Source of the DNA: Antedon mediterranea
Taxonomy: Eukaryota > Animalia > Echinodermata
Direction of reading: 5' to 3'
Assembly (NCBI RefSeq): GCF_964355755.1
Contig: NC_092671.1
Span: 33,366,304 to 33,430,303 of the forward strand
DNA: 64,000 nt
Below the pieces are notes generated by a model. It saw only the letters and a list, made by a program, of their open reading frames with translations, ran no database searches and was not told where the DNA came from. The position numbers and the translations under genes were made by a program. Shown here in pieces: positions 6,038 to 64,000 of this stretch (its first letter is position 1; each line of letters opens with the position of its first letter).

Positions 6038-6336
6038 TCAATCGCTCAGGCTTGGTTGGACAACGCATATGGGTGGAAGACGGAAGAGGTGGGTAGACTT
6101 CACACTGCCATTGGTTAGTCTTTCGAAAAGAGATGATTCATTGGTTGGACATTTTGGAGCTTTGATACCATCATGCAGTACTCTTGGTTTAGGAAGATTT
6201 TGGAGCATCCATCTTCTGACATTATGCTTTCCAGAGTCTGTTTCCATTTTGGAATTGTTGTTGTGCCTATATGTTCTTGTACAATTTTTATCTACTTTAA
6301 TATAATTAGATTCCTTAAAGTATATTCTTGGAAAAA
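6038..6336 (-). CDS. Candidate terminal coding exon, unknown protein
   Basis: attttag|TT phase-1 acceptor, open for 98 codons (FPRIYFKES...FRLPPICVVQPSLSD*). GC higher than flanks. Phase-compatible with the 25289 donor. Confidence 0.45.
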
Positions 6337-6814
6337 CTAAAAATAATGTAAGAGGATGTAATATAAATTGTGTTTACTTCCTTTCTACGATGGTATCATG
6401 TAAATAGCTAACTTCATAATGGTATCATGTAAATAGCTAACTTTATAATAATAGTATAGGTATATGCAGAAATACTGCAAAAAAAAAACATTCATTCATT
6501 CTATTTGAAAAGTAACGATAAACTCAGATGTTACCACTGTTTTAGAGTGATGTTGAAAACCTTTCTATTACTTTTCAAGTTATGTATTCCACTCAAAAGA
6601 GAAAGCACCTGATTTGGTTTATCCAGGTAACTTTAGGCACAAAACAAACTACATATTTATCACATTGGAAATCAACAAACTCTGAACAATATTAATTTAA
6701 AATGCTAAAATCAGGAACCTTAAAACAATATAGATATGGAACTAAAATATTTTGGATTAGTAATGGAAAAAATTCAAATGTGTAAAATTAATAATATTCG
6801 TTTTTATATAGCGA

Positions 6815-19313: not shown

Positions 19314-20469
19314 TTAGTCTATTCAAAAGTTGACCAAAAAATAATAATTAAAGTAATAGATAAGGTGTACAATGCTAATAGGAGTATAACAGATGTTATG
19401 ATAGAAAGACCATAGTTTAGATGATAGATTAATGTCAAATTAATACTTTGTCAGACAGGGTTACTTGAATATGATTTGTTACTCTTTTCAAACACATCAT
19501 TAAAAGGTGATAATGATAACAAATATTAGTGGAATGATGATGATGATGATTACCAAGGTGATCATAAGAAAAGACTCCATTGATATCTTATAACAACATC
19601 AACGCTAAATACAATGTATATTCATGATTATTTTGATGACATGATGATGACATAGTAATGACTAAAAAATGGTGATGATGATAATGAGGAGGGCAAATTG
19701 AATCTAATAATGCCTCTAATCAAACACATTACAAAGCTAATCAAACTGATGCCCATGATGTATGGGATATCATCGCCATGGAAACTAAGCTGTAGCTAGG
19801 ATTGAACTGAAATGACCAACTGAAAAATTTTAATTACACTACTCAACTAATATATTCATACCTTGAAATACTTTTAGAGTTATTTTATACACATATAAGT
19901 TTATCTGGATAAAAGTTTAGCCATAAAATATATATACATGTTTACAGTAGGCCTATAATCATTTTTTTTCCACAAAAAGAGGATCAACATTTCGGAACCA
20001 TAATGGAAACATGAAAAATAATTTATAATACTTTTACCAGCTTTTTATAAAGAACCAATATTCTTTCAAATTTTTAATAACTATAATTAATTATAAAACA
20101 ATATATGATTTTAATATGTTTTAATCTTCTCTTGTAGTGGCCTATAATACTCATATTATTATAATATTAAGCCCATTGATTTCATTCACTAGTATAAAGG
20201 TTACTTCTTATGACTAATAATTTATATGTTGGAGGTTTTTTAATAGTAATTAGATAAAAAGGTACAAACTAATTAATCAGCAGCATTAATTACAGTGAAA
20301 TTCACAAGATCCACCTGCCGTGAATTTGTACAATATAGCAATCACTAATTCTGCTTCAACCACATGACCTACATGAAGGGCATAAATAATGAAGGATATT
20401 AAATTATTATTTTAAATATTATATTCAGTAATCATTCTTTTCTTAAATGTCATCAGGAACTGGTACTCA

Positions 20470-38299: not shown

Positions 38300-39337
38300 A
38301 GAGTTTTATTGTAGAATAGGAGGAGGAAAGTAAATCCAGAGTTTTGTTGTAGAATAGGAGGAGGAGGAAAATAAATCCCGAGTTCTGCTGTAGAATAGGA
38401 GGGTAAAGTAAATTCAGAGCATTGTTGTAGAATAGGAGGAGGGGGAAAGCGAATCCAGAGTTTTGTTGTAGAAAAGGAGGGGGGGGGGGGGGAAAGGAAA
38501 TCAAGAGTTTTGTTGTGGAATAAGATGAGTGGGAAAGGAAATCTAGAGTTTTGTTGTAGAATAGGAGGTGGGGAAAAGGAAATCCAGAGCTTTGTTGTAG
38601 AAAAGGTGGAGAGAAAAGGAAATCCAGAGTTTTGTTGTAGAAAAGGAGGAGGGGAAAGGAAATCCAGAGTTATGTTGTGGAATAGGAGGAGGGGGAAGGA
38701 AATCCAGAGCTTTGTTGTAGAATAGGTGGAGGGGGAAAGGAAATCCAGAGTTTTGTTGTAGAAAAGGAGGAGGGGAAAGGAAATCCAGAGTTATGTTGTA
38801 GAATAGGAGGAGGGGGAAGGAAATCCAGAGTTTTGTTGTGGAATAGGAGGAGGGGGAAGGAAATCCAGAGCTTTGTTGTGGAATAGGAGGAGGGGAAAGG
38901 AAATCCAGAGTTTTGTTGTAGAAAAGGAGGAGGGGAAAAGGAAATCCAGAGCTTTGTTGTAGAATGGGAGGAGAGAGAAAGGAAATCCAGAGTTTTGTTG
39001 TAGAAAAGGAGGAGGGGAAAGGAAATCCAGAGTTTTGTTGTGGAATAGGAGGAGGGAGAAGAAATCCAGAGCTTTGTTGTAGAATAGGAGGAGGTGGAAA
39101 GGAAATCCAGAGTTTTGTTGTGGAATAGGAGGAGGGAGAAGAAATCCAGAGCTTTGTTGTAGAATAGGAGGAGGGGGAAAGGAAATCCAGAGTTTTGTTG
39201 TAGAAAAGGAGGGGGGGGGGAGGAAGGAAATCTAGAGTTTTGTTGTGGAATAGGAGGAGGGGGAAGAAATCCAGAGCTTTGTTGTAGAATAGGAGGAGGG
39301 CAGGACATAGAGTTTTGTTGCAAAATAGGAGGAGGGA
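38300..39337. repeat. ~40-bp purine-rich minisatellite, about 26 copies
   Basis: Unit GGAAATCCAGAGTTTTGTTGTAGAATAGGAGGAGGGGAAA. Confidence 0.97.
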
Positions 39338-40660: not shown

Positions 40661-42000
40661 GTATTATTTAAAAAAAAATGCCATTAATTTTATTTTCCGT
40701 ATGGGTGAATAGCATAAAAACAAAGGGATATGAGCTTGCCAAAAAACATCTACCAGACAAATAAAAATTACTGTATTTTTCATTGGGTATTGGGTATTAG
40801 CCTACCATAGGTCTAATAATTAGTGTTGAATTAATAATTAAATATGTCGATCTTTATTTCATCTTCATCAATATTCTATAAACACAACATAATTACAGTA
40901 ACATAACAATAATAAGTAATAGTAACAGTAATAAGAATGTTATCTATTTTTTATTTAGCTAATACAATTGAGTTTAGACCCGCCCTAAAAATTGTTTTCA
41001 AGTTTCTAATCAATTATTGATTGAAAGTTAATACTAATCAATTGATCAAGTCAATTAGACTGTTTTACTGAGGAGCGGACGGTTTCATTTCATTCATAAG
41101 TAATTACTGTAATTATTATAATCATTCATTTCTATAATCAACATAAAAAGTAACGTTTTTAGAAATGTTTATATATAAATGTACGGTATTTAATGTATGT
41201 TTAACAACGCGTTTCTGAAAGTTATATTAATCTACTCAAACTATACTTGTACTTTATTGATTTATTAAAGTTTACTGGAATCATTAAGTGTATCTGTTTA
41301 TACATTGTCTATTAATTAAATTATTTTTCTTATTACAGTAAAAACAGAAACTTATTAGTAAAACACGTATAGTATCCATTAATTGAAAGGAGTCTTTTCC
41401 CTAATTTTTCCTTTCTTTATATGTCATTGTTTAACATCATCTTTAAGATGTGAGTTTTACAAAACTTTTGCTCAGCCTATATCTAATTATCAGTCGGTGT
41501 TATGTAACACTGGAGGCTCTATAACACTATTAACGATGGACTCTTGTGTGCGCGTTAATATTTTTGTTGTTGTTGCATACTATTTAATATTCATAATATT
41601 TCAAATTAATAAAAAAAACATATATAAGTCTATCGAGAAGTAAAATTATGTAGCAAAATGTATTATATTTAAATAATTTGTTACATAAAGCGATTGTAAT
41701 CAAACACATTGGGCTAGGGTTCTACGAGATCAGTTCTAATTGTTGACAGAAAAGTTGCAGTGCGCCATCTTTCATGTGGTTATCCTTTTTAATATCGTTT
41801 ACCTCCAACTCCAGCCGTTTTCAATATTACTATAAGTTTACTTGTAAAGGAAACACATTTTCTTACATTAATTTATTTCGGTACACTCAGATTAAAACGC
41901 TTTATTGCATACTAACATCTAATTAAAACTAACATTAATAATAACTAGAGATTGGACTTAAAAACATGCTTAGTGTATGTGACATTTACGCTTAGCAATG

Positions 42001-42014
42001 GTTGCTATGGTAAA
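42001..42014 (+). promoter_or_regulatory. RFX X-box in the ODAD4 promoter
   Basis: GTTGCTATGGTAAA about 115 bp upstream of the ATG. X-boxes are typical of motile-cilia genes. Confidence 0.65.
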
Positions 42015-42127
42015 GAGGTCAAATGAGGACAATAATAAACGACGCTCTTTCATCATCAAACAACAGGCTGGCTACGACCAAAAACTAAATCGATCATAAA
42101 CCTTTTTATTAAAATTTGATTCATAAA

Positions 42128-42253
42128 ATGCCTTACGAAGGAGAAGAAGGCTCCGACAGCATTCAGAAAGGATCCTTTGCCATATTTGTAGCTGAAGGTG
42201 ATGTACTTTTTAAGCAAGGAGAGTACAAGAAGGCTTTAGAAAGTTACAGTGAG
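42128..42253 (+). CDS. ODAD4: ODAD4/TTC25 exon 1a (first coding exon, TPR1 helices)
   Basis: ATG in aaaATG context. Encodes MPYEGEEGSDSIQKGSFAIFVAEGDVLFKQGEYKKALESYSE, then phase-0 donor GAG|gtgagc. The ten exons join in frame to 1839 nt (612 aa + stop). Confidence 0.9.
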
Positions 42254-43686
42254 GTGAGCTAGCTCAACACAAAAACAACAAATCGACGATTTACGGGGGG
42301 AGCACATGCGCAGCTGGCATGCCATTGGCATTGATTGAGTATCTGTCGATAAGGCTTGTTTGTTGGTCGTATAGGCTAGCTAGGTTAGGCCTAGCTAGGG
42401 CTTAGTCTAGGAAGGACCATTAATGGACGTGGCCTAGCTAGCCTAAATAAGTCCAGCCAGACAACCAAGCCGATCAAAAGATAGGCCTAGGCCCTAACTA
42501 GGCCTAGCTAGGGCCAGGCCTATATAAAAAGTGGGTCGTGCACATCCATACAGTTCCAGGACCAATGCCTAGCTAGCTAGCCTAAGTAGGCCTAGCTAGC
42601 CTAGCCTACCCTAGGCCCTTCCCTCTGGCCTACAGTAAATGCCTAGGCCTAGTTTTTGGTAAGAGCGTAGGCCTAGGTATATTATTACTAGCTATACGAG
42701 GCTAGCTAGCCTAGCCATCTAGGCTTCAGCATTGACTTTCATCTGTGTCTATGCAGGCATGCCTATTTTAAGACTGAGCTGAGTGAAAATCAGGCTAGGC
42801 CTACTACTAAAAGGTCTCCATCTGATTGGCCAAAAGTAGTAACTTGTCCTTGATTATTATGTAACAATTAACACTTTGAATAACAACTTCTGCTGGGCCA
42901 GTCTATTCATGATTAAAACTGTATAATAAAAACATTTTTATTAAACATAGCCTAGTATTGATATTGATTTTTAATAATTTGGTTCATTGCTAATTTAGTT
43001 GTGTAGGCTTATAATAAAATAGGGGTTAATTATTACATTGAATGATATTAATTTTAATAGCAAGGTAAACTATTCTTTAAAATGAATAACCCTATAATTC
43101 TATTTGGAATAATCCATTGTCATCCCATCATTGCCCCTTTGGGACTAGTTGTTTTATAAATAAATGCCAAACTAAACTAATTAAAATATTTTTACTGTTT
43201 GTTTACTTATGCATATAAATGTGAATACTCAAAAGCTTATTCATTGTAAAATGTGAAATTATATGTAATAAATGAATGACTATTATTATTATTATTAAAG
43301 CCATTCTGTATTTGCAATGAGGTACCTGTATAATAATGGAAAACTATCAATGGGTCTACTTACAAACTGCTAATACCTTTGTTAAAAGAACAATTGATTT
43401 CTGGATTAAGACAATTGTAAAGGTCTTTACAAAGGTCATGTCTCTCTAAAGTAGTTTCTATGGAGATATCAAGCTACACCTAGTGCATAGTGAACATAGA
43501 TTGTTAACTGTTTGCAAGAACCAGTATTAAACCTTAGATGATCTAAGGTAGAAACAGAGAAGGCTTAGCCAAGTTCATTTACTTTTGATGATCACTGTAT
43601 TTTGATAGTTGGTTACTGTGTAGGACTCCACTCTATATTGATAGGTGGTAATACTGTATTGATAGTCTTTACTGTGGATATAAATC

Positions 43687-43815
43687 ATGGATGATTACAT
43701 TGATCCAGCAGTGGAAAGAGCAGAGCTCTTAAAGCTCTTACAGTCGTACATTGGTGAAGCTGAGGATCATATGCGGAAGAAAGAGTTTAGAAGAGCAAAA
43801 GAGGGTTATGATTTG
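43687..43815 (+). CDS. ODAD4: Candidate alternative first coding exon 1b of ODAD4/TTC25
   Basis: atcATGG start with in-frame TAA 6 nt upstream. Encodes MDDYIDPAVERAELLKLLQSYIGEAEDHMRKKEFRRAKEGYDL, then phase-0 donor TTG|gtaaag. The last 26 aa align without gaps to exon 1a in TPR register. Confidence 0.7.
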
Positions 43816-44028
43816 GTAAAGATGGTTGGATCATTTTTGTTTTGATTGTTGTTTTTGGTTTTTCATGATGTTCTAGTTGCAAGTAGACTATTATAGCCTA
43901 TAAAGTAATGTTTGGAGTACAATAGTGTGATTTTTCAAAAGTTGACAATGCCTTACTATTCGGTTTTTAAATATATATATATCGAGGCTTCATTAATCAA
44001 TATTCTTCAATGTTTCGTTTTTCTTTAG

Positions 44029-44160
44029 GCTCTTGAAATTGAACCTTCTGATAAAAACTGTCTGGTAGCCCGGTCCAAGTGTCACTTACAGCTGGGAGAT
44101 GCAGTATCAGCTCTCAAAGATGCAGAGGCCTCGCTTACTGAGGATAAAGATTATCACAAG
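44029..44160 (+). CDS. ODAD4: ODAD4/TTC25 exon 2
   Basis: ttctttag|GCT...AAG|gtaagt. Encodes ALEIEPSDKNCLVARSKCHLQLGDAVSALKDAEASLTEDKDYHK (TPR). Confidence 0.95.
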
Positions 44161-44293
44161 GTAAGTTAAGATTTATTATTTATTTATGCCATGAACATTT
44201 ACTGGTTCATAAAAAATAAGGTATATAAAAATAAAATGCATTGTTTTTAAAACTGTGCAAAGGGTTCAAATGGCACTGCAATGTTTAGGATAC

Positions 44294-44908
44294 AAACAGG
44301 AGTCCCGTCCTTCATTGCTTAGTACAGTATTCTAATCAAACAGGAGTCCTGTCCTTCATTGGTTAGTACAGTATTCTAATCAAACAGGAGTCCCGTCCTT
44401 CATTGGTTAGTACAGTATTCTAATCAAACAGGAGGCCCGTCCTTCATTGGTTAGTACAGTATTCTAATCAAACAGGAGTCCAGTCCTTCATTGGTTAGTA
44501 AAGTATTCTAATCAAACAGGAGTCCAGTCCTTCATTGGTTAGTACAGTATTCTAATCAAACAGGAGTCCCGTCCTTCATTGGTTAGTACAGTATTCTAAT
44601 CAAACAGGAGTCCAGTCCTTCATTGGTTAGTAAAGTATTCTAATTGAACAGGAGTCCAGTCCTTCATTGGTTAGTACAGTATTCTAATCAAACAGGGGTC
44701 CCGTCCTTCATTGGTTAGTACAGTATTCTAATCAAACAGGAGTCCAGTCCTTCATTGGTTAGTACAGTATTCTAATCAAACAGGAGTCCAGTCCTTCATT
44801 GGTTAGTACAGTATTCTAATCAAACAGGAGTCCCGTCCTTCATTGGTTAGTACAGTATTCTAATCAAACAGGAGTCCCATCCTTCATTGGTTAGTACAGT
44901 ATTCTAAT
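44294..44908. repeat. 44-bp minisatellite, 14 copies (ODAD4 intron 2)
   Basis: Unit AAACAGGAGTCC(C/A)GTCCTTCATTGGTTAGTACAGTATTCTAATC. Confidence 0.97.
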
Positions 44909-45067
44909 TAAGTGTTTTTTTCGGTTGTGCATGTCATACCACATAGTATTAAGTCTACCGATGTGTCCATGAATCTATTGGTTTTTTGTATCCACCCTTC
45001 TGAAAGGGTGTGGGTATTTGTTTCACAGCTGAAGTGAGTATTACTGATTCAATTGTAATTATTAAAC

Positions 45068-46245
45068 GATTTCGATCCAAGTCGGCCCTAAACCGTCTCG
45101 GCCAAAGTCAAGTCGGCCCCAAGTCAAGTCGGCCCCAAGTCATCTCGGCCTCAAGTCAACTCGGCCTCAAGTCAACTCGGCCTCACGTCAACTCGGCCAA
45201 AAAATAATCGGTCAACTCGGCCCCGTTAAAGTATGGAATGCAAAAGGTACAAAGGAAGGGGATTGATAAAATAATATTTCTTCACATTTTATTACCTATG
45301 AATAATTCTGACTTTTAATGAATATTAATATTTAGACAATAATACTTTTAGCAAAAAAAAAAGGAAGGATTTCACCAATTTTTCTTTATTTACGTTTAAT
45401 AAAATTTCAAATTGCACAAATTGTTCTGAAATTGCGCATAACAAACAATTGATTAATAAGCTAGCATTCATACTATTATTAATGATTACAATATGAACAT
45501 TTGGATAATAAATAGGAACACATTGTAGGCATACACCCAATATGATGATGCACGTACGTGGGCGCGTATGTTCGTTCGTGCGTCAAAATTCAATAAACAT
45601 GTCCGATATGCGAGGACATATATTAGGTGTAATAAGATTGTTTGGTTGGATTGTTTGGTTGAATCATTGAGGTATTAATTAATGTTAATTCTATGGTTGA
45701 ATCACGTGTAGATTTCTTCAGTGTATGCATTTGATTAGGCGACAACATCTGAAACCAATTCGTAGCTGCACCTCCCTGTGCCTTTGGCAGCTATTTCGAT
45801 ATCTACAACTGCTACGTGTTTTCGCTGACCGGGGGATTCCCCTTTTTTAAAAACGCAAATCATGGACAAAAACGATATGTACAGTTAAGTACGATCATTT
45901 TTCTATGGCCAAATGGTGGAACCATGGAGCTATAATAGCTCCATGATGGTCTTCAATTTACTAAAATGTGGTACCTGCACGTGTTTTTGTAAAACGCGGG
46001 TACTTCTATTCATATCGGCAATGATATAATTTTTTATTTTCTTATTTCTTAATTGTTTTTAAAGAGTGGATAGTAATAATCATAATAATATTAAGCACTT
46101 TTTGCGTTCCATACTTTATTGTGGCTGAGTTGACCGATTAGTTTTTGGCCGAGTTGACGTGAGGCCGAGTTGACTTGAGGCCGAGTTGACTTGGGGCCGA
46201 CTTGACTTTGGCCGAGACGGTTTGGGGCCGACTTGACCTGCACCC
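45068..46245. mobile_element. Foldback DNA element with subterminal tandem repeats (MULE-like, family uncertain), ODAD4 intron 2
   Basis: Perfect 8-bp TSD TATTAAAC. Long inverted ends built of 15-bp CAAGTCAA(G/C)TCGGCC(C/T) units. Confidence 0.88.
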
Positions 46246-46346
46246 TATTAAACACCTAATAACACTAAGAAATAAAGTAGTTTTTTCCCCCGACTTCTTT
46301 TGAATTATGTATTAAAACAATATTACTTATCATTTATCATTTACAG

Positions 46347-46500
46347 GGACTGTATCAGAAAGCCGAGGCTCTTTACCAGACCGGTGATTTTGAAATGGCC
46401 CTTGTTTTCTATCACCGTGGCAACAAACTCCGTCCTGAGCTACAAGAATTTCGACTAGGGATACAAAAAGCACAGGAAGCCATAGATAACTCAGTTGGCA
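46347..46500 (+). CDS. ODAD4: ODAD4/TTC25 exon 3
   Basis: ttacag|GGA...A|gtaagt. Encodes GLYQKAEALYQTGDFEMALVFYHRGNKLRPELQEFRLGIQKAQEAIDNSVG, matching the TTC25 signature GDFEFALVFYHRG...GIQKAQEAI as I recall it. Confidence 0.97.
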
Positions 46501-46524
46501 GTAAGTCATGTGATAATTATTAAC

Positions 46525-47404
46525 ATCAGTGGCAATGCTAGTGGTGGATCTAGAGAGGTAGATCCCCCACCAGAGCCTAGTGGTGACTATGACAGGCTAT
46601 CATATCATTGGCAATGCTTAGTGGTAGATCTAAAGAAGTACATCCACCACCAGAGCATAGTGGTGACTATGATATAGGCTATCATATCATTGGCAATGCT
46701 AGTGGTGGATCTAAAGAAGTACATCCACCACCAGAGCCTAGTGGTGACTATGATATAGGCTATCATATCATTGGCAATGCTAGTGGTGGATCCACCACCA
46801 GAGCCTAGTGGTGACTATGATATAGTCTATCATATCATTGGCAATGCTAGTGGTGGATCTAAAGAAGTACATCCACCACCAGAGCCTAGTGGTGACTATG
46901 ATATAGGCTATCATATCATTGGCAATGCTAGTGGTGGATCTAAAGAAGTACATCCACCACCAGAGCCTAGTGGTGACTATGATATAGGCTATCATATCAT
47001 TGGCAATGCTATTGGTGGATCTAGAGAGGTAGATCCACCACCAGAGCATAGTGTTGACTATGATAGGCTATCATATAATTGGCAATGCAAGTGGTGGATC
47101 TAGAGAGTTTGATCCCTACCAGAGCGTAGTGTTGAGTATGATAGGCTATCATATCATTGGCAATGCTAGTGGTGGATTTAGAGAGGTAGATCCACCACCA
47201 GAGCCTAGTCGTAACTATGATAGGCTATCATATCATTGGCAATGCTAGTGGTGGATCTAGAGAGGTAGATCCCCTACCAGAGACTAGTGTTGACTATGAT
47301 AGGCTATCATATCATTGGCAATGCTAGTGGTGGATCTAAAGAAGTACATCCACCACCAGAGCCTCAGTGGCAATGCTAGTGGTGGATTTAGAGAAGTACA
47401 TCCA
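46525..47404. repeat. 79-81-bp minisatellite, about 11 copies (ODAD4 intron 3)
   Basis: Unit ATCATTGGCAATGCTAGTGGTGGATCTAAAGAAGTACATCCACCACCAGAGCCTAGTGGTGACTATGATATAGGCTATCAT. Confidence 0.96.
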
Positions 47405-47881
47405 GAACCTGATGGTGACCATGCTATTGGGAATATTTTTAACAAAAAAGCAAAGAATTAAATTAGATTTTGACAAAGATTGTATTTTCACACATAGACA
47501 TAAACATGTGTCTCTTCATATTACTCCGACTCCACTCAAGGGTCATTAAGTATTTGACATAACCTCAACAAATAAAGTCATGCTATCACCAAAATCATAG
47601 CATGGTGAATCTAACATATTTCATTTTGGCCAGTGATTGTTTTAATTGTGGGGAGTAAAAATGTTTTACTAATTTTCTCTAAATTCAATTTCTCTAACTT
47701 GCCTGGATTAACCAAATATTAAAAAATATAATGATATTTAATGTCACCTGTACAGTCTGCTTTGCCTTCTTGATCAACCAATTTCTTTATTTATACAATA
47801 ACAATTTTTGTAATCTTTACGTATTTATCTACATACAGTATCTATAAATATAAGTTGTTCTGATATCTTCTTTATCAACAG

Positions 47882-47943
47882 GCCCATCAAAAGTGAAACT
47901 TGAAAACAAGGGTGATCTATCATTCTTCAGCAAACAAGATGAG
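47882..47943 (+). CDS. ODAD4: ODAD4/TTC25 exon 4
   Basis: caacag|GC...GAG|gtaata. Encodes SPSKVKLENKGDLSFFSKQDE, with the conserved KLENKGDLSF motif. Confidence 0.93.
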
Positions 47944-49130
47944 GTAATAAGAACTAGAAAATAATTAGCTTTTGTACTGAAGATTATTACTTCTCATTTA
48001 AAATGAACTTTGAACCAGCAAGCATTCAATGTCAAATCTTGGTATCATCAAAACATAACGGTTTTCTAACATTTTATTTTGGTCATTTGAGTGAAAACAT
48101 ACTTGTGTGTAAACATGTGTTAAACTATCAATTCTTTCATGACCTAAAAAATAAAACAGCCACAGAAAAACATGTACAACTGTCCGTGCTGCATATAGGC
48201 CCCTGCTTAAGACTCCTAAGTGGCCCCAATGTTAGAGATCTTGGAGCATTTTTAGCCTTTTTCTAAATGCCTGTTGTTTCTTCTGGGCCATGCTCAGGTG
48301 CCCCTGTAAGCTCTGAGCCAGCAAGTGCTCATAGCTGTTATGCCACTGATTCCAACCAGATTCTTTTAAGCCTATTATGTTCTGATAGCGTCTGCCATGG
48401 ATAGTAGTAATTTAACCCTATTGATTTAGTAGTGAATAAAATTATTTGTAAAATTACTGTAGATGATAGTTACAGACTTACTAATTTAAAAATATTTGTA
48501 AATATAACATTAAGTCTAGAAATAAATTAGTAATTTTACCAAAAATAAAATTGTTCATCCCATGAGGATGGCAATCAGAATTGTAATATGTGATTAGAAT
48601 TTTTTACCAAGATGCCTTTGAACTTTGAAAGTTTTGTTTTAAGATATATTGTATTGTGTTAAAACTAAAACACTAGAAATCAGTCTCTTTGCACTTAAAG
48701 TGTATTTTTTAGTGCAAATACAGACTAAATTAATATCATGAATCTTACAATGACTGTACTCTATAATGAACAAAATCTATTAACATTTATAATTAGTAAT
48801 ACCATAGAGCACTATAATATCTCTATGGTAATATAGTATAGAAACACAATTTAAGGAGATACCATTTTTAATAGGGGTGTATTGTCCCCTGAATAGGGGT
48901 TGGCCATAGTAGTGTTAAATTGTTCACAATTGTTTCACAAAAGGGTTCCCCTTAATAGTTGTGTCGCCTGAATAAGGATTGGCTGTAGTTGTAAAACCTA
49001 TATTGCCCTTGTTTGTCTCATGGAAAGGGGTCTGTCTTCTAGGGGTGTTCTCAGAAGGCATCAACATAATAAATAAGACAATAATGGTAGGTGGTCAATG
49101 GCCACAAAAACACACACAATTACTGCCTAA

Positions 49131-49290
49131 AGCTCTGTCTGCACTATCAACTAGTTTGTCAAATAAAGTGTGATGTTCACAAATGTGGTAGTGATATGCC
49201 CAAATATGGTAGTGGTATGACATCATCATGTCCATACAGTGTATAGGCACATCACATTTTTTGTCAAATAAAAGTATGATGGTGTAGACA
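49131..49290 (-). mobile_element. MITE, same family, reverse orientation (ODAD4 intron 4)
   Basis: Reverse-complement core GGTAGTG...ATGACATCATCATGTCC. Confidence 0.8.
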
Positions 49291-49368
49291 TCTTTTTATA
49301 TTTTACTCAGGTCTTAAAATGAATCAATTTGATTATGATAATATAATAACTCATTCCTATTATTGTAG

Positions 49369-49555
49369 ATGAAGACGACAAAGAAACAGCCTCGAATGGG
49401 GTACACCAAGCCAGGAACCAAACATGTTGACAACAAACAGAATAAACGTCCAGTGAGAGCAGAGCAATCTGACAAGGAGAAAGAGATCACAAAACAACTG
49501 TTAGGAGATCTGTACAAGGATCGACTTTATCTGGATAAGTTGCTGAAGGACGGCG
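49369..49555 (+). CDS. ODAD4: ODAD4/TTC25 exon 5
   Basis: ttgtag|ATG...G|gtgagt. Includes KQLLGDLYKDRLYLDKLLKD. Confidence 0.93.
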
Positions 49556-50094
49556 GTGAGTTTAGTAGTGATGATAATCAACAATAAGCCAATATATTTA
49601 AAATTAATTTGTTGCCCAGCCAAAAGTTTCAGAATACTAATGTCAGCATTTAAAACTTCTAGGAATAAAAAACACATGATAAATGAAATAATTATAATTA
49701 TTGGAAATTTTGTAATATATGTATTATGATGTTCAATTTGTTTTTATGACCTATAGCAGTAATTTTAATCAATTTTATACATATTTTGTTAATTGAAACA
49801 CAATTAAAAAAAAAAAAAAGGAAACAAAAATTAACCTAGAAAAACACAACTAGTCTGACCATCGGTTCTACAGTACTAGCCATAGATAAAGGTACAATAA
49901 TATATTATTTCCAAAGTAAACTCACAATTTGAAAACATTTATTTACTCAGAAGAGATAAAATAGACTGAACCAAATCTAGGAAATATGAATCCTATTGAT
50001 GTTTCATTTACTGTATGCCATTAGTTTTCTGTAATCTCTGTCATCTAAGTTGAAGATTAGGCTTCTAACAGTTCTTGTGATTTCGCAAATTTAG

Positions 50095-50316
50095 ACTTAA
50101 CAAGACCAACCACAGAGAGCGGTAACCAGATATATGATTTGGTGATGCAGGGATTACGATATTTAGATACACGAACAGAGTTCTGGCGTCAACAAAAGCC
50201 AATGTATGCACGCAATCGAGACAAAGCCGAGGCCAGCAAGGGAAGACGGGACAAGAGTAAAGTGCCAATGGATCCTGCAAAGTACATCCTTAAAAATCTG
50301 GAAGAAATTGATAATT
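50095..50316 (+). CDS. ODAD4: ODAD4/TTC25 exon 6
   Basis: atttag|AC...T|gtaagt. Includes GLRYLDTRTEFWRQQKPMYAR, with the conserved FWRQQKP motif. Confidence 0.95.
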
Positions 50317-50359
50317 GTAAGTAAGCAAATAAAAAGTAGTATTCAGGTTATCTTCTTCT

Positions 50360-50682
50360 ATTTTAAGGAGCAAACTTCATAGTTGAAGGCTACTGCTCCA
50401 CTAAGGGTCCCATTGTGACATCGGCAGCCAACTACGGCGCCAATACGTCTGTGTTTGTGTATGAATGAACTATATACACCAGGGTAACCCCCTACTCGTC
50501 TCGAAAGATTTACTAGGTTCTTTAAAGTGCACATGAGCCAGATGTACACTGGACCTACGGTTTATAGTCCTCCGAGAAGACTTGTTCTACTACCAGAACC
50601 ATGGAGCGATTGAGCCTCGAACCCTTGCCAATGTTATGGCTATGGATTTCGGTTCCACTGTCTTAACCGCTCGGCCACACTC
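50360..50682 (-). mobile_element. tRNA-headed SINE with Deu/Nin-like central domain (ODAD4 intron 6)
   Basis: Minus strand GTGGCCGAGCGGTTAAG A box and GGTTCGAG B box, then TCGGAGGACTATAAACCGTAGGTCC...TTAAAGAACC...GAGTAGGGGGTTACCCTGGTGT. Confidence 0.8.
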
Positions 50683-51056
50683 ACACTCGGCCACACTGTA
50701 CATCAATACAACTCTTAAATAAAAAGAACAAAATTGTATAAAGAATGAAGTTATGTTACCAGTCCTTCTGCCCCTTCCTACTATACTGTGGTCATATGTT
50801 TGCCCACAAAGTAATTGGAATTTATGCTGAACTTCTTGGTGGACACACAACCTCTAGCTTGGCATTTATACCTCTTGACAACCAAGTTTGCATTGCTGGC
50901 TAGGGGTTACATTCAAGCTCACAAAAGCAGGATGTTGCTCACTAACACAAAGCTACTTCGATTATTAGATTATACTACATCATGTTCACAATACAGTACT
51001 ATACATTTTATTTACTTAATTGGCGCTTAAATCTTCTCCTTTCTGTTTTTTTCTAG

Positions 51057-51264
51057 CCTTGGCCAAGAACAAACCAAAGGATGCTCTTAGCCAGTCTAAA
51101 CGTGTCCTGAAGACGGTGGAAGGATGGAAAGAAAGTGACGTACCTGATAAAGATGACTATCTTGCCAATTTACATAGTTGTATTGGTAATGCACACTTGG
51201 ACCTAGGAAACATGGAGTTTGCATTGAAGCATCATAATATTGATTATGATTTGTGCCAGTCAAG
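51057..51264 (+). CDS. ODAD4: ODAD4/TTC25 exon 7
   Basis: ttctag|CC...AG|gtaaat. Includes LANLHSCIGNAHLDLGNMEFALKHHNID (TPR). Confidence 0.95.
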
Positions 51265-51615
51265 GTAAATCAAAATATTCTTCATCCAGATATTAGTATA
51301 CAGGCACAGTGCCGAGAGTAAATAAATATTTGCATATGCGGTTGTCTTCTGTGCCTAGACGGAGCAATGATCCATTCATTGTAATCAATGAGCACTATAA
51401 AAGAACTAGGAATATCAGGTTTCAAGAATGTATCAATTTGTTTTTGAAATTGAAAGATGTTAGGAGAAAGAGGTGACTTTCAGTTCTGTAAATGTGTGTG
51501 TATTTTATTATTTTGACTATGTTGACTTTGTTTTCTGTCACCATGTTCGACTGTGTGCCTATAGATACACAGTTGACAGTGCCGACTAAAACTGATGAAT
51601 TTACATTTACAATAG

Positions 51616-51899
51616 GGAAAGTGAGGATGGACGATCAAGAGCATTGGACAATCTCGGCAGAGTCCATGCCCGTATCGGTCAGTTCACAGAAGCAGTCAAG
51701 TATTGGAAAGAGAAGTTACCAATGGTCAAGTCGGCGTTAGAGGCAACCTGGTTGTACCACGAGATTGGCCGCTGCCACTTGGAGCTTGGTGAATATCAAG
51801 AGGCTCATGATTTTGGTGAGAAGAGTTTGAAGGCAGCACAAGAAGCTGGAGATGATGTCTGGCAGTTAAATGCCAGTGTTCTTATTGCCCAATCAGAGG
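51616..51899 (+). CDS. ODAD4: ODAD4/TTC25 exon 8
   Basis: caatag|G...G|gtgcgt. Includes SRALDNLGRVHARIG...TWLYHEIGRCHLELG...WQLNASVLIAQ. Confidence 0.96.
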
Positions 51900-52233
51900 G
51901 TGCGTACATTTTAGTTTCTTCATGTGTTTTCCTTATTTTAACCAGTGTACACAGTTGTGTTTGACTCTACTATGTACCCATTTATACACGAAACGCAAAC
52001 ATAAGTAAACGTGTCTTGCCTATTAGAACATAATGCACCACAATGCGATGAGCCCACAATCAAACACCTAACACATGCTGCATCACTGCCCTGCACTTTG
52101 TCCTGTACTTTATAACAAACTGCAAACAGACTTTGAGGCTAAAAAAGGACACTTATGCTTTCCTTCATCAATTCTAGTCTACTTGTATTTTTGTTTGTGG
52201 GTGATTATTTTTAGATTTTCTTTTACTCTACAG

Positions 52234-52551
52234 TAAAACTTGGAGATTTACATGAAGCTATTGAGTCATTTGAGCGGTCACTCGAAATGGCAAAGATCCA
52301 AGGGGATTTCCCAGCTCAAAAAGCAATTTCAAAAGCTTTAGAAGATCTTAATGAAAAGATCGTTAAAGGACTGAAAGGAGAGGATGAGGACGAGGAAGAA
52401 CAAAATGAAAACAAAAATGATAAAAAGAGTGATGACGAAAAAGATAATATAGAAGAGAAGGAAGATGCAATGAAGGATTATAAAAGTGAAGATGAAGACA
52501 GCAAAAAGGACAAAGATAAAGAAAAGGAGGAACATAATGATTCGTCATCAG
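52234..52551 (+). CDS. ODAD4: ODAD4/TTC25 exon 9
   Basis: ctacag|TA...G|gtatta. Last TPR (VKLGDLHEAIESFERSLEMAK), then a D/E/K-rich tail. Confidence 0.92.
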
Positions 52552-53562: not shown

Positions 53563-53621
53563 TTAATCATCGTAACCATTTAATTGTTCATATTATAAAA
53601 ATTGAATTAAATTTTTTTCAG

Positions 53622-53767
53622 ATGAGAGTGTCAAGTCAGACAAGTCCCATAACTCGCACAAATCTAGCAAATCGGACAAATCAGACAAGTCCGACAAATC
53701 AGACAAGTCTGACAAATCAGACAAGTCAAAACACTCGGAGGGCAAAAAAGATGTAGACGAAACATAA
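53622..53767 (+). CDS. ODAD4: ODAD4/TTC25 exon 10 (terminal)
   Basis: ttttcag|AT, phase-compatible. Encodes DESVKSDKSHNSHKSSK(SDK)n SKHSEGKKDVDET*. AATAAA at 53792 and 53806. Confidence 0.85.
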
Positions 53768-58687: not shown

Positions 58688-58868
58688 TTAGTTGTCAATA
58701 CTGTCTGGAATTAAATGGGTTTCAAGTTAAAAAAAAATTTAAATTATTTTTATTTTAAATTACTTTATTCATATTATTTTTAATGTTTTGGGGGACAATA
58801 CATTTTTAAATAGAATGTTTGATATATGGTTTGTTGTAAAATTATAAATTAAAAATGGCCACTCTTAC

Positions 58869-59037
58869 CTGTTGGAAACCAGAAATCTTATACTGAATTG
58901 TAAACGAGAACGTAACTCTAAGATGACGTCTCCAATCAGGATTCCTAGTAATAGTTACAGCGCCCTCTATTATATCACCTTCTTGAACTTTACAAGGGTC
59001 ATCCATTACGAACATGTCTTGTTTCCAATGGGTTGTT
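58869..59037 (-). CDS. PRMT2: PRMT2 penultimate exon (THW loop)
   Basis: tttag|A...CAG|gtaaga. Encodes TTHWKQDMFVMDDP...ITRNPDWRRHLRV, with the THW loop and PRMT2-like RNPxWRRH. Confidence 0.95.
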
Positions 59038-60296
59038 CTAAAAGAAAAAATAAAATATAAAATGTATTACCTTACAGTAGTGTTTGAATAGTGGATTCTA
59101 TTCTTCTAGTTCTCATTGATAAACTCCATGATATATTTCTATGCATTATGGCTGTATCATAAGACAATGTCACATGTGATATAACCATTAAAAATAACTT
59201 TGTTGTGAAGATACAGAACATTCAAATTTGTATCACAAAATTTAATGGATAAATCTTGGACAATTTTGGTTATCACGTCAGAGAATTTGGAGTGCATTAA
59301 AAAATTGTAGGCAATGTAAAGTTGATACAAAGTTTGCGGTACACCACGTATATTAGTTCTGAAAAGAACTGTTGAGTTAAAGTTACAATTACAGAGGTTT
59401 CAAATTGGGAAAATGATATCCGAGTCTAAATAAAAAAAAAGCATGGCGAAAACCATAAAGGATATAAATATATACTGTATATCCAAACAAATGTTGAATA
59501 TCAGCATGTATATAGTAAACAATGACACTTTTCCAGTGCATGGCCTATGCCGATGTGCAAAGTGTGTTGCATAGTAGATCATAAATCATAAATTGTGGCA
59601 CACTCAAGCGAAATCAGACATAAGTTGGAATTTTCAAATTGAGATTTTCAAAAATATGTAAAACTACATAATCCAAGATTTAAAATACTGAATAAATATC
59701 TTGATACCATGTTTATTTCCAGAGATATCAGTCTAAGGTTTTGGTTGTTACAATCAGTGTTTTGAGAAAAATGCTTTAAAGTTAACTAAAAGGAAATGAC
59801 AAGTACAAAAAAAACCAGGGTGTTTAAGTTAACGTCTTAGTAAAGGGGTATTCTAATTGTTGTATTTCAATTAAACTTCGCACCTTTGTTCATTAACTGT
59901 TAACTATTGTGTTTCATTTTTTTGATTAAAAAAAACCCATGAGAACATTTTCAATTTAAGCATAAAACATTATAGGTTTTATGAAAATCATACACAATTT
60001 TTTAACCAACTGACAACACAAAAATTCCTGCATTTATTTGTCTCAAAATAGAAAAACACCAAAGTAATGTAATTAAATACTGATTCTATCATTTTCCGTA
60101 ACAAAAAAAAAATTGTGATTTTTCAGCCTTTCATTGTTTGTGGCTGTCTATACAAAACTACCTATGCAACTTTTGTCTGAATTTGCTTGAATGTGCCACA
60201 ATGTATACACTTGAGAGAGAGAGAGAGAGACAGATCACTATGTGGAAGCTCTTGTGATTATCGGGACATAATATCTTTGTATAAGATGAGTCTTAC

Positions 60297-60436
60297 GGCT
60301 TGTCTGGTCCTGTGTCTAGTACAACATCTTCAGCATTTTCGTCATCTTGTGAGCAGAAATCAACTGCAAACCATGATCCAAATCCATGAAATGTTCCAGA
60401 CTTTTTAACAACAAATCTGAATTCACATTTACTCTT
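60297..60436 (-). CDS. PRMT2: PRMT2 internal exon
   Basis: tttcag|AAG...CC|gtaaga. Encodes KSKCEFRFVVKKSGTFHGFGSWFAVDF...VLDTGPDKP, the PRMT beta-barrel HGFxxWF and TGP motifs. Missed by the ORF track. Confidence 0.92.
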
Positions 60437-60488
60437 CTGAAAAAAATTGAAATGAATACCTTCATCAATGTTAGATTCACATCTATAA

Positions 60489-60607
60489 ATCTCTGTCTAC
60501 GCTATAAAACTTTATTTGCCCATATATGAACATGATGATGTCATATCACTACCATATTTAATCATATCACTACTATATCACACTAGTTTGAGAGTGTAGA
60601 CAGAGCT
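60489..60607 (+). mobile_element. MITE, same family, short copy (PRMT2 intron)
   Basis: CTCTGTCTAC...GTGTAGACAGAGCT with the shared core. Confidence 0.8.
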
Positions 60608-60728
60608 TTAGAAAAAGTTTAGCCCAACTGGTACAAAAATATCATTCATTATTTGCTAACCATCCTTATTATGAGTACATCAGGCTCTCATTGATAGATT
60701 GATTTCAATTGAAATCTGCATTGTCCAA

Positions 60729-61240
60729 TACCCCTTTCACACCAAAAGCAAAACTGGAGTTGACGTCCCGCTGTTTGGTGTGAAAGGTAAAATCAAGCAA
60801 CTCCGGAGTTTAAAACTGCGGGGTTGAACAGCTGAACATTCTCTGGAGAGCGAACTGCGGGGACACCCCGGTGTTTTGGTGTGAAAGGTACCAACATCAA
60901 ACTCCGGAGTGTTTCGTGTCAAAAGGTCATCCTCACACGATCACTCATTGCTTTAGTTTTATTTCAAAATACTTTAAATATTTGTACAACATATAGAGCA
61001 GGTTAAAAAATAATAAGTAGTATCATTAAAACATTATATTACTTCTGAGACTTTGAAAGTAATGATCGTCGCTATGTAAACAAACAAAATAGAGGGCGAC
61101 ATTTACAATTTTATTTTATAAACCCCGGAGTTGCTAGGTTGGTGTGAAAGGGGTATCTCCGGAGTTTCTCGACGTTTTGAATGGTCATAAACCCCGGGGT
61201 GTCTCCGGAGACACTCCAGAGTTTTGGTGTGAAAGGGGTA
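60729..61240. mobile_element. PIF/Harbinger-type MITE, PRMT2 intron
   Basis: Perfect TIR TACCCCTTTCACACCAAAA, 3-bp TSD CAA, internal GGTGTGAAAGG and ACTCCGGAGT repeats. Confidence 0.9.
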
Positions 61241-61612
61241 CAAGAGAGACAAGCAATTTATGTGCTTTGTATGTATGTTTTTTTAATTTATTGTCTGTAT
61301 ATGTTTGTATATATCTGTAACTTTTTATATGTATTTTTGTATGTATGCCATTTAGAAAATGAATTTCCATGGTGGACCAATAATATATTATCTTATTTTT
61401 TATTGAATTAAAACGTCTGAAAGCAGTTTTGTGTTACATCAATGTAAAATTGTCTCGGTTCTTTACGTGCCTTGATGACAACATAATAACGCAGTCTGTG
61501 CGAATTTACACAATTACACTGTGTTTGTCTTTACATTACAATACATGAGTTCATGTGGTAATGGTACCACACCAATCCCAAGTCTTCAAGTATTAAACAA
61601 ACATTTATATAC

Positions 61613-61742
61613 CTCAAGTTCACTAACTTTGACCTCTTTCATGTCAAATTCAAGTATAACTGCCATGTTGGACAACATATCATCTGCATCAATTAAATGA
61701 TTAAATATCGGCCTGCCAAAAAATCGATCCTTTGCCACCGGT
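61613..61742 (-). CDS. PRMT2: PRMT2 internal exon
   Basis: ttgcag|A...GAG|gtatat. Encodes PVAKDRFFGRPIFNHLIDADDMLSNMAVILEFDMKEVKVSELE. Confidence 0.9.
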
Positions 61743-62778
61743 CTGCAATTAAAATAAGGTATGCAAGACAACGTTAGTAAATCAATATATAAAATCTAAT
61801 TTGTTTTTCTGAAATAAAAATTACAAAGTTTAATAATAACGGCTGCAGACGGCTTGCTAATAATACTACTTATTTCTACTATATGAATTTTAAAACAAGT
61901 TCTATTAATTTTAATGAGAATATTTAGATAATTTGCAAATTAATTTTTAATGTATAGCTCTTTTTTTAGATATATTTTTATACTTTTGTAACTGCATTTT
62001 AGCCTCTTGGCTACGAATATTACAAACGGTATGGTGTTATGATTGTTTGAAATAAAGTTATATATATTAAACCTATACATTTTTATACAAAAACAAACAA
62101 ATAACAAAACCGGAGAGAAATTTACTGGCTTTATCCACTATGGAGTGTATTATATAGCTTTGATAAACCCAGTGGCTAAAGGTCAATTAATTATGGGATA
62201 AATGACAGATATGACACGACCACCTGCGATACGACCGGACCACCTGCGATATTACAACATGTCTGGTCATTTAATGAGTTTACTCATCATTATTCTCGAA
62301 TGTGTTCCGGCCAGCTGTGTGGCATTGATCTCACTGTCTAGTCTAAAGTCTGTCTTTTTACTAGTTTAACAAACAGCTGTTTACATAATCTAATCAAACG
62401 TTATAAATAAAGAAAACGAAGTTGAAGGGCAAATCATTTGGGGAAATGGGTGAAAAAAACTATTAAAAAAAATTGACCAAAAATTAACTTGATGGTGCCC
62501 ATTCATTGGATTAATATCAGCAAGAAATTGGTCTAATAAACGCATCAATTTACAGTTAAAAATAGCTTTAACAATAAAGAGGAATTAAAAGGTGCTACAT
62601 CGGTCGGGCTAGAAGAAGAGTGAGTAACATATTGGAGCTATTATAATATAGATTGTAGAAATATCAGGTTGTGAGTGGCCCCTTGTAGTAGGTATGTGAA
62701 AAAACATTCATTAGGCCAAGAAATGTAGTTTATAGTCTAGCATGCAATGCTGTTTAGTTTCCCCACACTATTACTTAC

Positions 62779-62954
62779 ATTAATGGCGTGAAGTCAAAGC
62801 CATAAACCGTGCGCCAGAAGTCTATTTTGCTACTATATTCTGTATTTGCTTTGCATGGCACAAGGAATAACTTCGCAATTGATGGCCACATAACCCCATG
62901 TGAAGCAAGCCACCTATTTCGTGCTACTATAACTGATTCAATCATCAACTCAAA
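62779..62954 (-). CDS. PRMT2: Protein arginine N-methyltransferase 2, internal exon (upstream exons outside the window)
   Basis: ttgcag|TTT...AT|gtaagt. Encodes FELMIESVIVARNRWLASHGVMWPSIAKLFLVPC...FWRTVYGFDFTPL, resembling PRMT2 FEFMIESILYARDAWL...WP (from memory). Confidence 0.92.
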
Positions 62955-64000
62955 CTGCAAACAAAAAAACAATTTGTAGAAAAAGACTTTTAGATATACG
63001 CCATTTCTATTCATCAGATTCTCAATACTACAAGAAGCTCTATTTTTTTTTGTCTAATACACTTTTAAAGCATAACATATTGAATGTCATTTTCCTCATT
63101 TTATTAACTATTTCAATTAATATAAGATGATGCTTAAATGGACAGGTAGTGCAACGACTTTCACCAGTATTTATTAGTGTACTCAGCTCTCTACCTGTAT
63201 ATTGTACTAACTTCAGTGCTATTTAGATTTTTCACGCTGCTGCTCTAGCCCGCTACGTCCCATTAGGACTACTCAATCAGAAGCTAAAGCAAGCAGCAGT
63301 TATAGTTCTAAGGACAGACAGTTTTGTGAAAATGGAAACTCCACTATGATTTATTGATTCCAGCTGCTACAGTAGACCCAAAAAACGTCTGGGAAAGAGT
63401 CTATTAGGACATGTCATGCATGCTAAAATTACAAATCCCTAAGCATTTCTGGTATATTCACTGTCAGATATTCATTGAATTATTATCGAAACAGTCCATT
63501 AAAGTTTGTGTTTGTAATAGGATACTTCACAATTGAAATATCTACAGTAGGGTGATGAAGTGACCCCCAGATTTGACCTTAGCAATACAATTAACTAAAG
63601 TGACAGAAATTGAGTATTCACTTCTGTAACAAAAAAATAATATTTATTCACATATAAAAAAAGAAAAGAAACCCAAAAACCATTGTCTGACAGACAGACA
63701 GACAAGTATTTGTTGCTTTAAATTACATTTTTTTCAGGTAAAATAACTATTATGTGACAATAAAATGATAAACAGTTGAAATAAAAAATATTTTTCAATA
63801 AGCGAGCAGCGTTTTTTGTAAGAAATATTTCTTGTTTTATTTGGGATAAAAGTGGCCTTTTATTTTTATGATGTGGAAAGCATCTACATAGCTATATCCA
63901 ACAGTCATTCTGCACAAGAATGACTTTTTGACTTAATAGTCACAGTGTCTAGTGGCCGGCATCATGAAAACAAAAGGTTGCAATGTTTTAATTTAAGATA

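What the first reader, a model, noticed from the sequence alone, without database searches (positions are those of the whole stretch)
43687..43815. Hidden alternative first exon swaps the first TPR motif of the dynein-docking protein ODAD4/TTC25
Seen: intron 1 contains a 43-codon ORF, too short for the ORF track. It has its own ATG (atcATGG, in-frame TAA just upstream) and a phase-0 GT donor that fits exon 2. Its last 26 aa (LQSYIGEAEDHMRKKEFRRAKEGYDL) align without gaps to exon 1a (FAIFVAEGDVLFKQGEYKKALESYSE). TPR consensus positions are kept (aromatic 4, small 8, aromatic 17, A20, Y24), and exon 2 supplies A27 and P32 (ALEIEP). The two exons differ greatly in DNA sequence, which points to an old exon duplication kept under selection. 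Known: ODAD4 is part of the complex that docks outer dynein arms on ciliary doublets. Inference: two promoters give mutually exclusive TPR1 variants, possibly for sperm flagella versus larval or somatic cilia. I know of no description of this. A weaker alternative is a cassette exon using the internal phase-0 acceptor ctcttacag|TCG at 43744.
Basis: partly seen in the sequence, partly recalled or inferred. Interest (0 to 1): 0.82.

Follow-up and report, generated by a model that had tools for sequence, protein, structure and literature searches.

The report
Ancient second start for cilia protein
An echinoderm gene for a protein that anchors the beating motors of cilia carries a second starting exon, shared with sea urchins, sea cucumbers, brittle stars and acorn worms, that likely swaps the protein's first repeat and may give some cilia or sperm tails a different motor anchor.

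Summary
Intron 1 of this echinoderm ODAD4/TTC25 gene holds a 43-codon exon (1b, 43687-43815) with its own ATG and a phase-0 donor that fits exon 2. It scores 21 bits on a profile of exon-1a sequences; the next best of 1259 comparable stretches scores -4.

Exon 1b is old. Its sequence occurs in 8 of 12 named echinoderm and hemichordate species seen. In 6, automated annotation lists both 1a-first and 1b-first isoforms on an identical exon 2. The cassette reading is unlikely, because the residues upstream of the internal acceptor are conserved.

Still to be shown: the 1b junction and a second promoter in this species, and any tissue split. The sea-urchin Ap58 record is 1a-type.

Beyond the finding: Lingula and Styela records also swap the first TPR through alternative starts, and some bivalves carry the Lingula-type variant in a separate paralogous clade. 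A shallow AlphaFold model turns 1b into one long helix.

I found no paper on it in the library searched. This scan reported the same exon before in a sea urchin genome (e1-9892769). Verdict: new member of a known kind (N-terminal swap by tandem exon duplication).

The parts
42001..42014 (+). X-box (RFX)-like site upstream of exon 1a; motif name recalled
   Evidence: the pattern was written after seeing the site
42068..42253 (+). exon 1a: 5' part from the start of the spliced contig, coding 42128-42253; canonical first TPR (positions 1-26)
   Evidence: contig of run X1 joins 42253 to 44029, GT..AG
43454..43467 (.). X-box (RFX)-like site 220 bases upstream of the 1b ATG; candidate promoter element, function untested
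   Evidence: weak, see Tried and rejected
43681..43683 (+). in-frame TAA just upstream of the 1b ATG
43687..43815 (+). exon 1b coding part: 17-residue conserved extension plus divergent first TPR (positions 1-26)
43742..43743 (+). internal in-frame AG acceptor (cassette alternative, disfavoured)
43816..43821 (+). phase-0 donor GTAAAG of exon 1b
   Evidence: unspliced read-throughs of orthologues also continue with Val (a GTN codon) at this place in 3 of 3 distinct sequences aligned
44029..44160 (+). shared exon 2 (end of TPR1 and TPR2)
46347..52551 (+). shared exons 3-9 (46347-46500, 47882-47943, 49369-49555, 50095-50316, 51057-51264, 51616-51899, 52234 to about 52551); with exon 2 an open frame of 522 residues, GT..AG introns
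   Evidence: parts covered by the spliced contig

Best explanation
Intron 1 of this echinoderm ODAD4/TTC25 gene holds a second first coding exon, 1b, conserved from sea urchins to acorn worms; it likely arose by an old duplication of exon 1a, is likely transcribed from its own promoter and spliced to the shared exon 2, and would give a docking-complex subunit whose first TPR repeat and N-terminal extension bind differently in some type of cilium or flagellum. Shown: the exon anatomy, its conservation, and 1b-first annotated or assembled sequences in relatives. Inferred: the duplication, which must predate the echinoderm-hemichordate split (over 500 million years, date recalled); fast early change followed by strong constraint; a separate promoter; a changed binding surface. 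Untested: which cells use 1b and what it binds.
For: Conservation: the 43-residue peptide matches, at 72-74% identity over its full length, the N-termini of S. purpuratus isoform X1 and A. japonicus isoform X3 (4 hits among 17 candidates). Six species have both 1a-first and 1b-first isoforms with an identical 44-residue exon 2: S. purpuratus, L. pictus, A. japonicus, Amphiura filiformis, Ptychodera flava and Saccoglossus kowalevskii (identity check 6 of 6). Unnamed full-length proteins that begin with 1b lie on contigs of 2.5-3.4 kb (P0010, P0040, P0011), whereas the gene spans over 10 kb here, so they are inferred to be spliced transcripts. The 1b extension is better kept than that of 1a: 8-12 of 17 against 3-6 of 16 identities to the window. 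Ten of 26 TPR positions are invariant in 10 distinct 1b sequences. Duplication: 1b scores 20.7-29.2 bits on the 1a profile in five relatives; their best other repeat scores 8.0-11.7. Both exons end at the same repeat position and phase. In a 30-column tree the 1b rows sit on a long stem (2.21 changes per site) with short tips. The Foldseek identity to the cryo-EM ODAD4 chains (204-224 residues resolved) rises from 44-46% with the 1b model to 46-50% with the 1a model, so the first repeat is inferred to lie in the ordered part of the docking complex.
Against: No 1b record was seen for 4 of 12 named ambulacrarian species: Diadema antillarum, D. setosum, Glandiceps talaboti and Heliocidaris crassispina. 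The 1b isoforms of Saccoglossus are listed only under nr and UniRef records, not the NCBI source. The isoform names come from automated pipelines; I did not see their read support. 1b is a poorer TPR: the whole-protein Pfam TPR_1 score falls from 89.3 to 70.7 bits in S. purpuratus and from 94.1 to 77.4 in P. flava. The AlphaFold model of the 1b isoform has no helix-turn-helix there (one helix, residues 7-47), so 'a TPR variant' may be the wrong picture. The 30-column tree is poorly resolved, and the long Styela row falls inside the 1b group. No partner or tissue was tested.
Confidence: 0.75

Rival explanations
1. Exon 1b is specifically the sperm-flagellum form and 1a the somatic or larval form.
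For: Sperm-specific swaps are known in this machinery: CCDC63 replaces ODAD1, and DNAH8/17 replace DNAH5/9, in mammals (PMC11779644, passages). In Ciona, Ap58 and DC2-related subunits differ between sperm and branchial cilia (PMC4427456, passages).
Against: The Heliocidaris record named 'outer arm dynein binding protein' (BAD38896.2) is 1a-type. I take it to be Ap58 from its name and recall that Ap58 was described from sperm axonemes; I did not read that paper, so the tissue of the cDNA is not checked.
Confidence: 0.25
2. 1b does not form a TPR hairpin. Its extension and helix A run on into helix B as one long helix that projects from the solenoid as a new docking arm.
For: The best AlphaFold model of the S. 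purpuratus 1b isoform has one helix at 7-47 (pLDDT blocks 74-85 for residues 11-50). The 1a isoform, folded the same way, has helices 9-25 and 28-41. Full-length TPR matches start at model residues 30-49 for 1b (8 of 50 rows reach the N-terminal part) and 1-14 for 1a (6 of 50) (not independent of the models). The turn glycine is lost in 10 of 10 1b sequences.
Against: Both alignments held only 12 close sequences. The small residues at positions 8 and 20 and the aromatics at 4 and 17, which pack the two helices in TPRs (established TPR consensus, recalled), are kept in 10 of 10. Language-model neighbours of residues 1-60 are TPR clusters (scores 0.91-0.94; this part includes 17 residues of exon 2).
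Confidence: 0.25
3. The second exon exists for its promoter: it brings expression to another cell type or stage, and the two protein ends do the same job.
For: Core TPR packing positions and net charge are similar in 1a and 1b. Each exon has an X-box-like site upstream (weak).
Against: 1b has its own invariant residues that differ from 1a (S3, G6, E9, H11, R13, K14, R19, L26) and a conserved 17-residue extension, which interchangeable ends would not need.
Confidence: 0.12
4. The 3' part of the ORF is a cassette exon entered at the acceptor before 43744 and spliced between exon 1a and exon 2.
For: The acceptor is present, in frame and open. One Holothuria leucospilota gene model (KAJ8019702.1) joins 1a to part of 1b.
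Against: The 17 residues of the extension, all upstream of the acceptor, are conserved with their ATG (8-12 of 17). The Holothuria model enters 1b at a different place than the acceptor here. An unnamed read-through (P0025) with the same 1b tail as that model has the full Met start. No other of the 181 full-length proteins classified showed both exons in tandem. The spliced contig joins 1a straight to exon 2.
Confidence: 0.04
5. Exon 1b is functional in relatives but a silent relic in this species.
For: The window's 1b has a few private changes (E16, K21, D25).
Against: Open frame, intact ATG and donor, and 15-21 of 26 identities to relatives, close to the 20-23 of 26 kept by exon 1a.
Confidence: 0.04

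Closest known systems
Tandem exon duplication-derived N-terminal substitutions (Martinez Gomez et al. 2021, PMC8373072; abstract and passages read)
   Same: Duplicated 5' coding exons used through alternative promoters give homologous N-termini. The paper lists 39 such N-terminal cases in human and finds them mostly ancient.
   Different: TTC25/ODAD4 is not named in that paper's main text (0 occurrences; supplement not searched). Here the two exons are only 5/26 identical, and the case lies in Ambulacraria.
RefSeq/nr isoforms of ODAD4/TTC25: S. purpuratus XP_011670214 (1b) and XP_030830887 (1a); A. japonicus XP_071822235/XP_071822236; A. filiformis XP_072032095/XP_072032097; P. flava XP_070570629/XP_070570630
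   Same: The same exon, the same junction, the same two N-termini.
   Different: Automated predictions without comment on origin, tissue or function.
Mammalian pentameric ODA docking complex (Gui et al. 2021, PMC8595878, section read) and sea-urchin Ap58
   Same: The gene body is the ODAD4/TTC25 orthologue (E about 1e-154 to the mammalian chains). TTC25 TPRs and ARMC4 repeats form a solenoid bridge between CCDC114/151 copies.
   Different: The vertebrate and lancelet records seen carry only a 1a-type start. The passages read do not say what the first TPR touches.
Sperm-specific paralogue swaps in the outer dynein arm and its docking complex (CCDC63 for ODAD1; PMC11779644, passages)
   Same: A docking-complex part exists in two forms that could suit different cilia.
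   Different: Those are separate genes with a known tissue split. Here it is one gene with two first exons and no tissue data.

Membership tests
ODAD4/TTC25 | Full-length orthology to mammalian ODAD4 | tested here: met
   S. purpuratus orthologue against PDB chains 8j07, 7rro, 9cpc at E 2e-155 to 2e-151; the window's gene body groups with echinoderm orthologues, support 100
ODAD4/TTC25 | Sits in the axonemal docking complex at 24-nm spacing | not testable with these tools
   known for mammals; no data for the 1b isoform
Tandem exon duplication-derived N-terminal substitution | The two exons are homologous and lie in tandem | tested here: met
   21.2 bits against a null maximum of -4.2, above all other repeats of the protein; same boundary and phase
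Tandem exon duplication-derived N-terminal substitution | Transcripts use one exon or the other as the first coding exon | tested here: met
   in relatives: both isoforms with identical exon 2 in 6 species and 1b-first proteins on short contigs; in this species only the 1a junction is shown
Tandem exon duplication-derived N-terminal substitution | A separate promoter or transcription start for the second exon | tested here: inconclusive
   only an X-box-like site at 43454; no start-site data
TPR repeat (Pfam TPR_1/TPR_2) | Consensus residues at 4, 8, 17, 20, 24, 27, 32 | tested here: met
   for positions 4-24; exon 2 supplies A27 and P32; G15 is lost and Pfam scores drop
TPR repeat (Pfam TPR_1/TPR_2) | Helix-turn-helix fold | tested here: inconclusive
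   AlphaFold on a 12-row alignment gives one continuous helix for 1b and a hairpin for 1a; shallow alignment, no partners
Cassette exon | Conserved internal acceptor, with the upstream part non-coding | tested here: not met
   the upstream residues and the ATG are conserved; the one chimeric model uses another entry point
Sperm-specific axonemal isoform | Expression restricted to testis or sperm | not testable with these tools
   no tissue-labelled reads or peptides were available

The most novel reading that the evidence does not exclude
Many bilaterians keep two kinds of dynein docking complex that differ at the first TPR of ODAD4. Ambulacrarians do it with exon 1b, Lingula and Styela with other alternative first exons, and bivalves with a paralogous gene that carries the Lingula-type start. 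The variants share loss of the turn glycine, may go back to one ancestral exon, and in the 1b form replace the TPR hairpin by a long helix that binds a partner not present in the 1a complex, tuning the beat of one class of cilia.
Probability: 0.2. Interest if true: 0.75.

Novelty: new member of a known kind. Interest (0 to 1): 0.5.

Why it matters
ODAD4 is needed to dock outer dynein arms and is a ciliary dyskinesia gene. Why sperm and epithelial axonemes swap a few subunits is stated as unclear in the recent structural literature (PMC11779644, passage). An isoform pair that differs only in about 43 N-terminal residues, kept since the echinoderm-hemichordate split and present in sea urchins, a standard model for cilia, gives a clean test of what the first TPR of ODAD4 does. 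It also warns that existing sea-urchin axoneme proteomes and cryo-EM maps may mix or miss isoforms. The mechanism itself, a duplicated first exon, is well known.

Tried and rejected
No whole genome was held for this window, so no genome-wide or paralogue search in this species.

Sequencing runs: 5 listed, no RNA holder on record. Run X1 (RNA is a guess) gave one 1836-base spliced contig through exon 1a and no contig over 43687-43815. Contigs drop rare forms, so this says nothing against 1b. DNA-like runs X2 and X4 showed no difference inside 1b, which is uninformative.

dN/dS could not be run: the scan of metagenome contigs returned 1 locus from 117 pattern matches, an unrelated chance match. 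The search of 50%-cluster representatives with the 43-mer found 1 protein, a 49-residue read-through.

X-box sites: the tailored pattern gave 3 matches against 0.08 expected, but I wrote it after seeing the two sites. A recalled general consensus gave 7 against 7.1 expected, and a recalled palindrome at 3 mismatches gave 3 against 1.7. Not counted as evidence for a promoter.

One origin for 1b and the Lingula/bivalve variant: AU p = 0.18, and 0.34 with Styela, on 30 columns; neither rejected nor shown. Each variant scores higher on the 1a profile (25-28 bits) than on the other's (about 12), but the 1a profile is much deeper. Three out-of-register rows of 80 were left out of the 1a profile.

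VIA searches were filled by the C-terminal TPR domain and did not list the cryo-EM ODAD4 chains. No complex was folded, since no partner sequence was at hand.

Papers: 10 searches listed none on ODAD4 first-exon isoforms. 'TTC25 + isoform + first exon' gave 0; none of the 20 listed of 96 contained TTC25. The Wallmeier 2016 paper and the sea-urchin sperm structure paper were not held; their supplements, and the closed supplement of the bioRxiv ciliome paper (10.1101/153437, listing only), may hold isoform-level peptides. The supplement of PMC3812683 lists Ap58 counts in embryonic cilia but no 1b peptide string. Walton 2023 (PMC10266980, passages) did not say what TPR1 contacts.

Full report
Observation. 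The window holds an ODAD4/TTC25 gene on the + strand. Exon 1a codes from 42128 to 42253, exon 2 runs 44029-44160, and seven further exons reach about 52551 with GT..AG introns and an open frame. A 1836-base contig of run X1 (RNA by guess) starts at 42068 and joins 42253 to 44029 and 44160 to 46347. Inside intron 1, 43687-43815 is a 43-codon ORF with an in-frame stop six bases upstream, its own ATG and a phase-0 GT donor. Its last 26 residues share only 5 identities with exon 1a. They nevertheless score 21.2 bits on a profile of 77 distinct 1a-type sequences (3 of 80 left out as out of register). The best of 1259 other stop-free, GT-ended 26-codon stretches in the window scores -4.2, and 0 of 100000 shuffles reach the score. 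The feature is real.

Relatives. The gene body groups with echinoderms (support 100; quick tree, 49 rows). The 43-mer finds 4 proteins among 17 candidates: S. purpuratus TTC25 isoform X1, A. japonicus isoform X3, a Holothuria model and an unnamed read-through. Two further searches (18 of 47 candidates; the best 120 listed of 1159) and three cluster look-ups gave 181 full-length proteins that could be classified: 19 with 1b sequence, 130 1a-type, 30 of a lophotrochozoan type and 2 of a Styela type (redundant records included). 1b sequence occurs in 8 of 12 named ambulacrarian species seen. Six have both isoforms on an identical exon 2: S. purpuratus, L. pictus, A. japonicus, A. filiformis, P. 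flava and S. kowalevskii. L. variegatus showed 1b only, H. leucospilota a chimeric model, and both Diadema species, Glandiceps and Heliocidaris 1a only. No named sea star or crinoid record turned up. Three unnamed full-length 1b-first proteins lie on contigs of 2.5-3.4 kb and are inferred to be spliced transcripts. The lancelet, Ciona and vertebrate records seen are 1a-type only.

First exon or cassette. The internal acceptor before 43744 exists. However, the 17-residue extension upstream of the TPR part keeps 8-12 identities to relatives, more than the 3-6 of 16 kept by the 1a extension, and begins with Met in every annotated isoform. The only tandem 1a+1b record is one gene model that enters 1b elsewhere. 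I read 1b as an alternative first exon. The promoter is inferred; an X-box-like site lies upstream of each exon, but the tests not tailored to the sites were at chance level.

Origin. 1b scores 20.7-29.2 bits on the 1a profile in five relatives, and their best other repeat 8.0-11.7. It ends at the same repeat position and phase as 1a. This points to duplication of exon 1a before echinoderms and hemichordates split (over 500 million years; date recalled). The 1b rows sit on a long stem with short tips in a weak 30-column tree, and ten positions are invariant among 10 distinct sequences: fast change, then constraint.

What it would do. ODAD4's TPRs and ARMC4's repeats bridge neighbouring CCDC114/151 coiled coils in the mammalian docking complex (PMC8595878, section 10 read). 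The cryo-EM chains resolve 204-224 residues, and their Foldseek identity is higher to the 1a model than to the 1b model, which differ only at the start. I infer that the first repeat is in the ordered part. 1b keeps the packing positions, changes the others to its own invariant set, and adds a conserved extension, so a changed binding surface is the likeliest effect. Against a plain TPR variant: Pfam scores drop, and AlphaFold with 12-row alignments gives one helix (7-47) for the S. purpuratus 1b isoform but a hairpin (9-25, 28-41) for 1a. That may reflect a shallow alignment and the lost turn glycine. Language-model neighbours of the first 60 residues are TPR clusters. Tissue is open. Sperm-specific swaps are known in this machinery (PMC11779644, passages; PMC4427456, passages). 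Ap58 is also found in sea-urchin embryonic cilia (PMC3812683, table passage and supplement row), and the Heliocidaris record that I take to be Ap58 is 1a-type (original paper not read).

Wider pattern. Lingula anatina isoforms X1/X2 and X3 start with different first TPRs on the same exon 2, as do Styela clava X1/X2 and X3. The Lingula alternative resembles the start of a set of bivalve proteins. Their bodies form a clade with the Lingula gene (support 95), apart from the 1a-type mollusc, annelid, nemertean and bryozoan proteins (98). Two venerid clams, Ruditapes and Mercenaria, fall on opposite sides at 52% body identity, which indicates paralogues. I did not see both paralogues in one species. 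Whether these variants share an origin with 1b is unresolved (AU p 0.18 and 0.34).

Known and new. The kind of event is known: tandem duplication of 5' coding exons with alternative promoters (PMC8373072, abstract and passages; TTC25 not named in the main text). The isoforms are in automated annotations. Ten searches of the held library listed no paper on them; most subscription papers and several supplements were not available. This scan noted the same exon in a sea urchin genome before (e1-9892769). That note gave me the lead to PMC8373072 and is not counted as evidence.

Verdict. Observation confirmed; alternative first exon very likely; promoter, tissue and partner untested. New member of a known kind, interest 0.5.

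Noticed in passing
proteins P0174/P0124 versus P0175 (Lingula anatina); P0020/P0041 versus P0042 (Styela clava): Other animals also have ODAD4 isoform records with two different first TPRs on one exon 2. The Lingula alternative matches the start of a bivalve paralogue clade.
   Followed up: partly
protein P0044 (Tegillarca granosa): A 1066-residue model is two tandem 1a-type ODAD4 copies fused by annotation.
   Followed up: partly
window 58845-63053, - strand: Exons of a protein arginine methyltransferase gene (Pfam PRMT_C), convergent with ODAD4.
   Followed up: partly
window 45078-46240: Inverted-repeat element in intron 2 with arms of about 115 bases at 90% complementarity, built of 16-base units, and very high read depth: likely a non-autonomous DNA transposon.
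   Followed up: no
window 44293-44908, 46525-47370, 38300-39336: Tandem arrays with periods 44 (14 copies), about 80 (11 copies) and 40 (26 copies).
   Followed up: no
window 42365-42810: Stretch of intron 1 rich in short CTAG/AGGCCT palindromes, matched by many short contigs from elsewhere in the genome.
   Followed up: no
window 41709-42067: A low-depth contig of run X1 abuts the start of the main spliced contig; a longer 5' end or a divergent transcript.
   Followed up: no
window 53606-53767: Open frame with a 9-base Ser-Asp-Lys repeat, possibly a last exon of ODAD4.
   Followed up: no
window 19772-19785: A third, near-palindromic X-box-like site with no gene identified next to it.
   Followed up: partly
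window 9110-9593: Probable hAT transposon remnant (weak Pfam match, E 0.014, below the curated cut-off).
   Followed up: no
window 6041-6373, - strand: 111-codon open frame that looks coding but has no Pfam match.
   Followed up: partly
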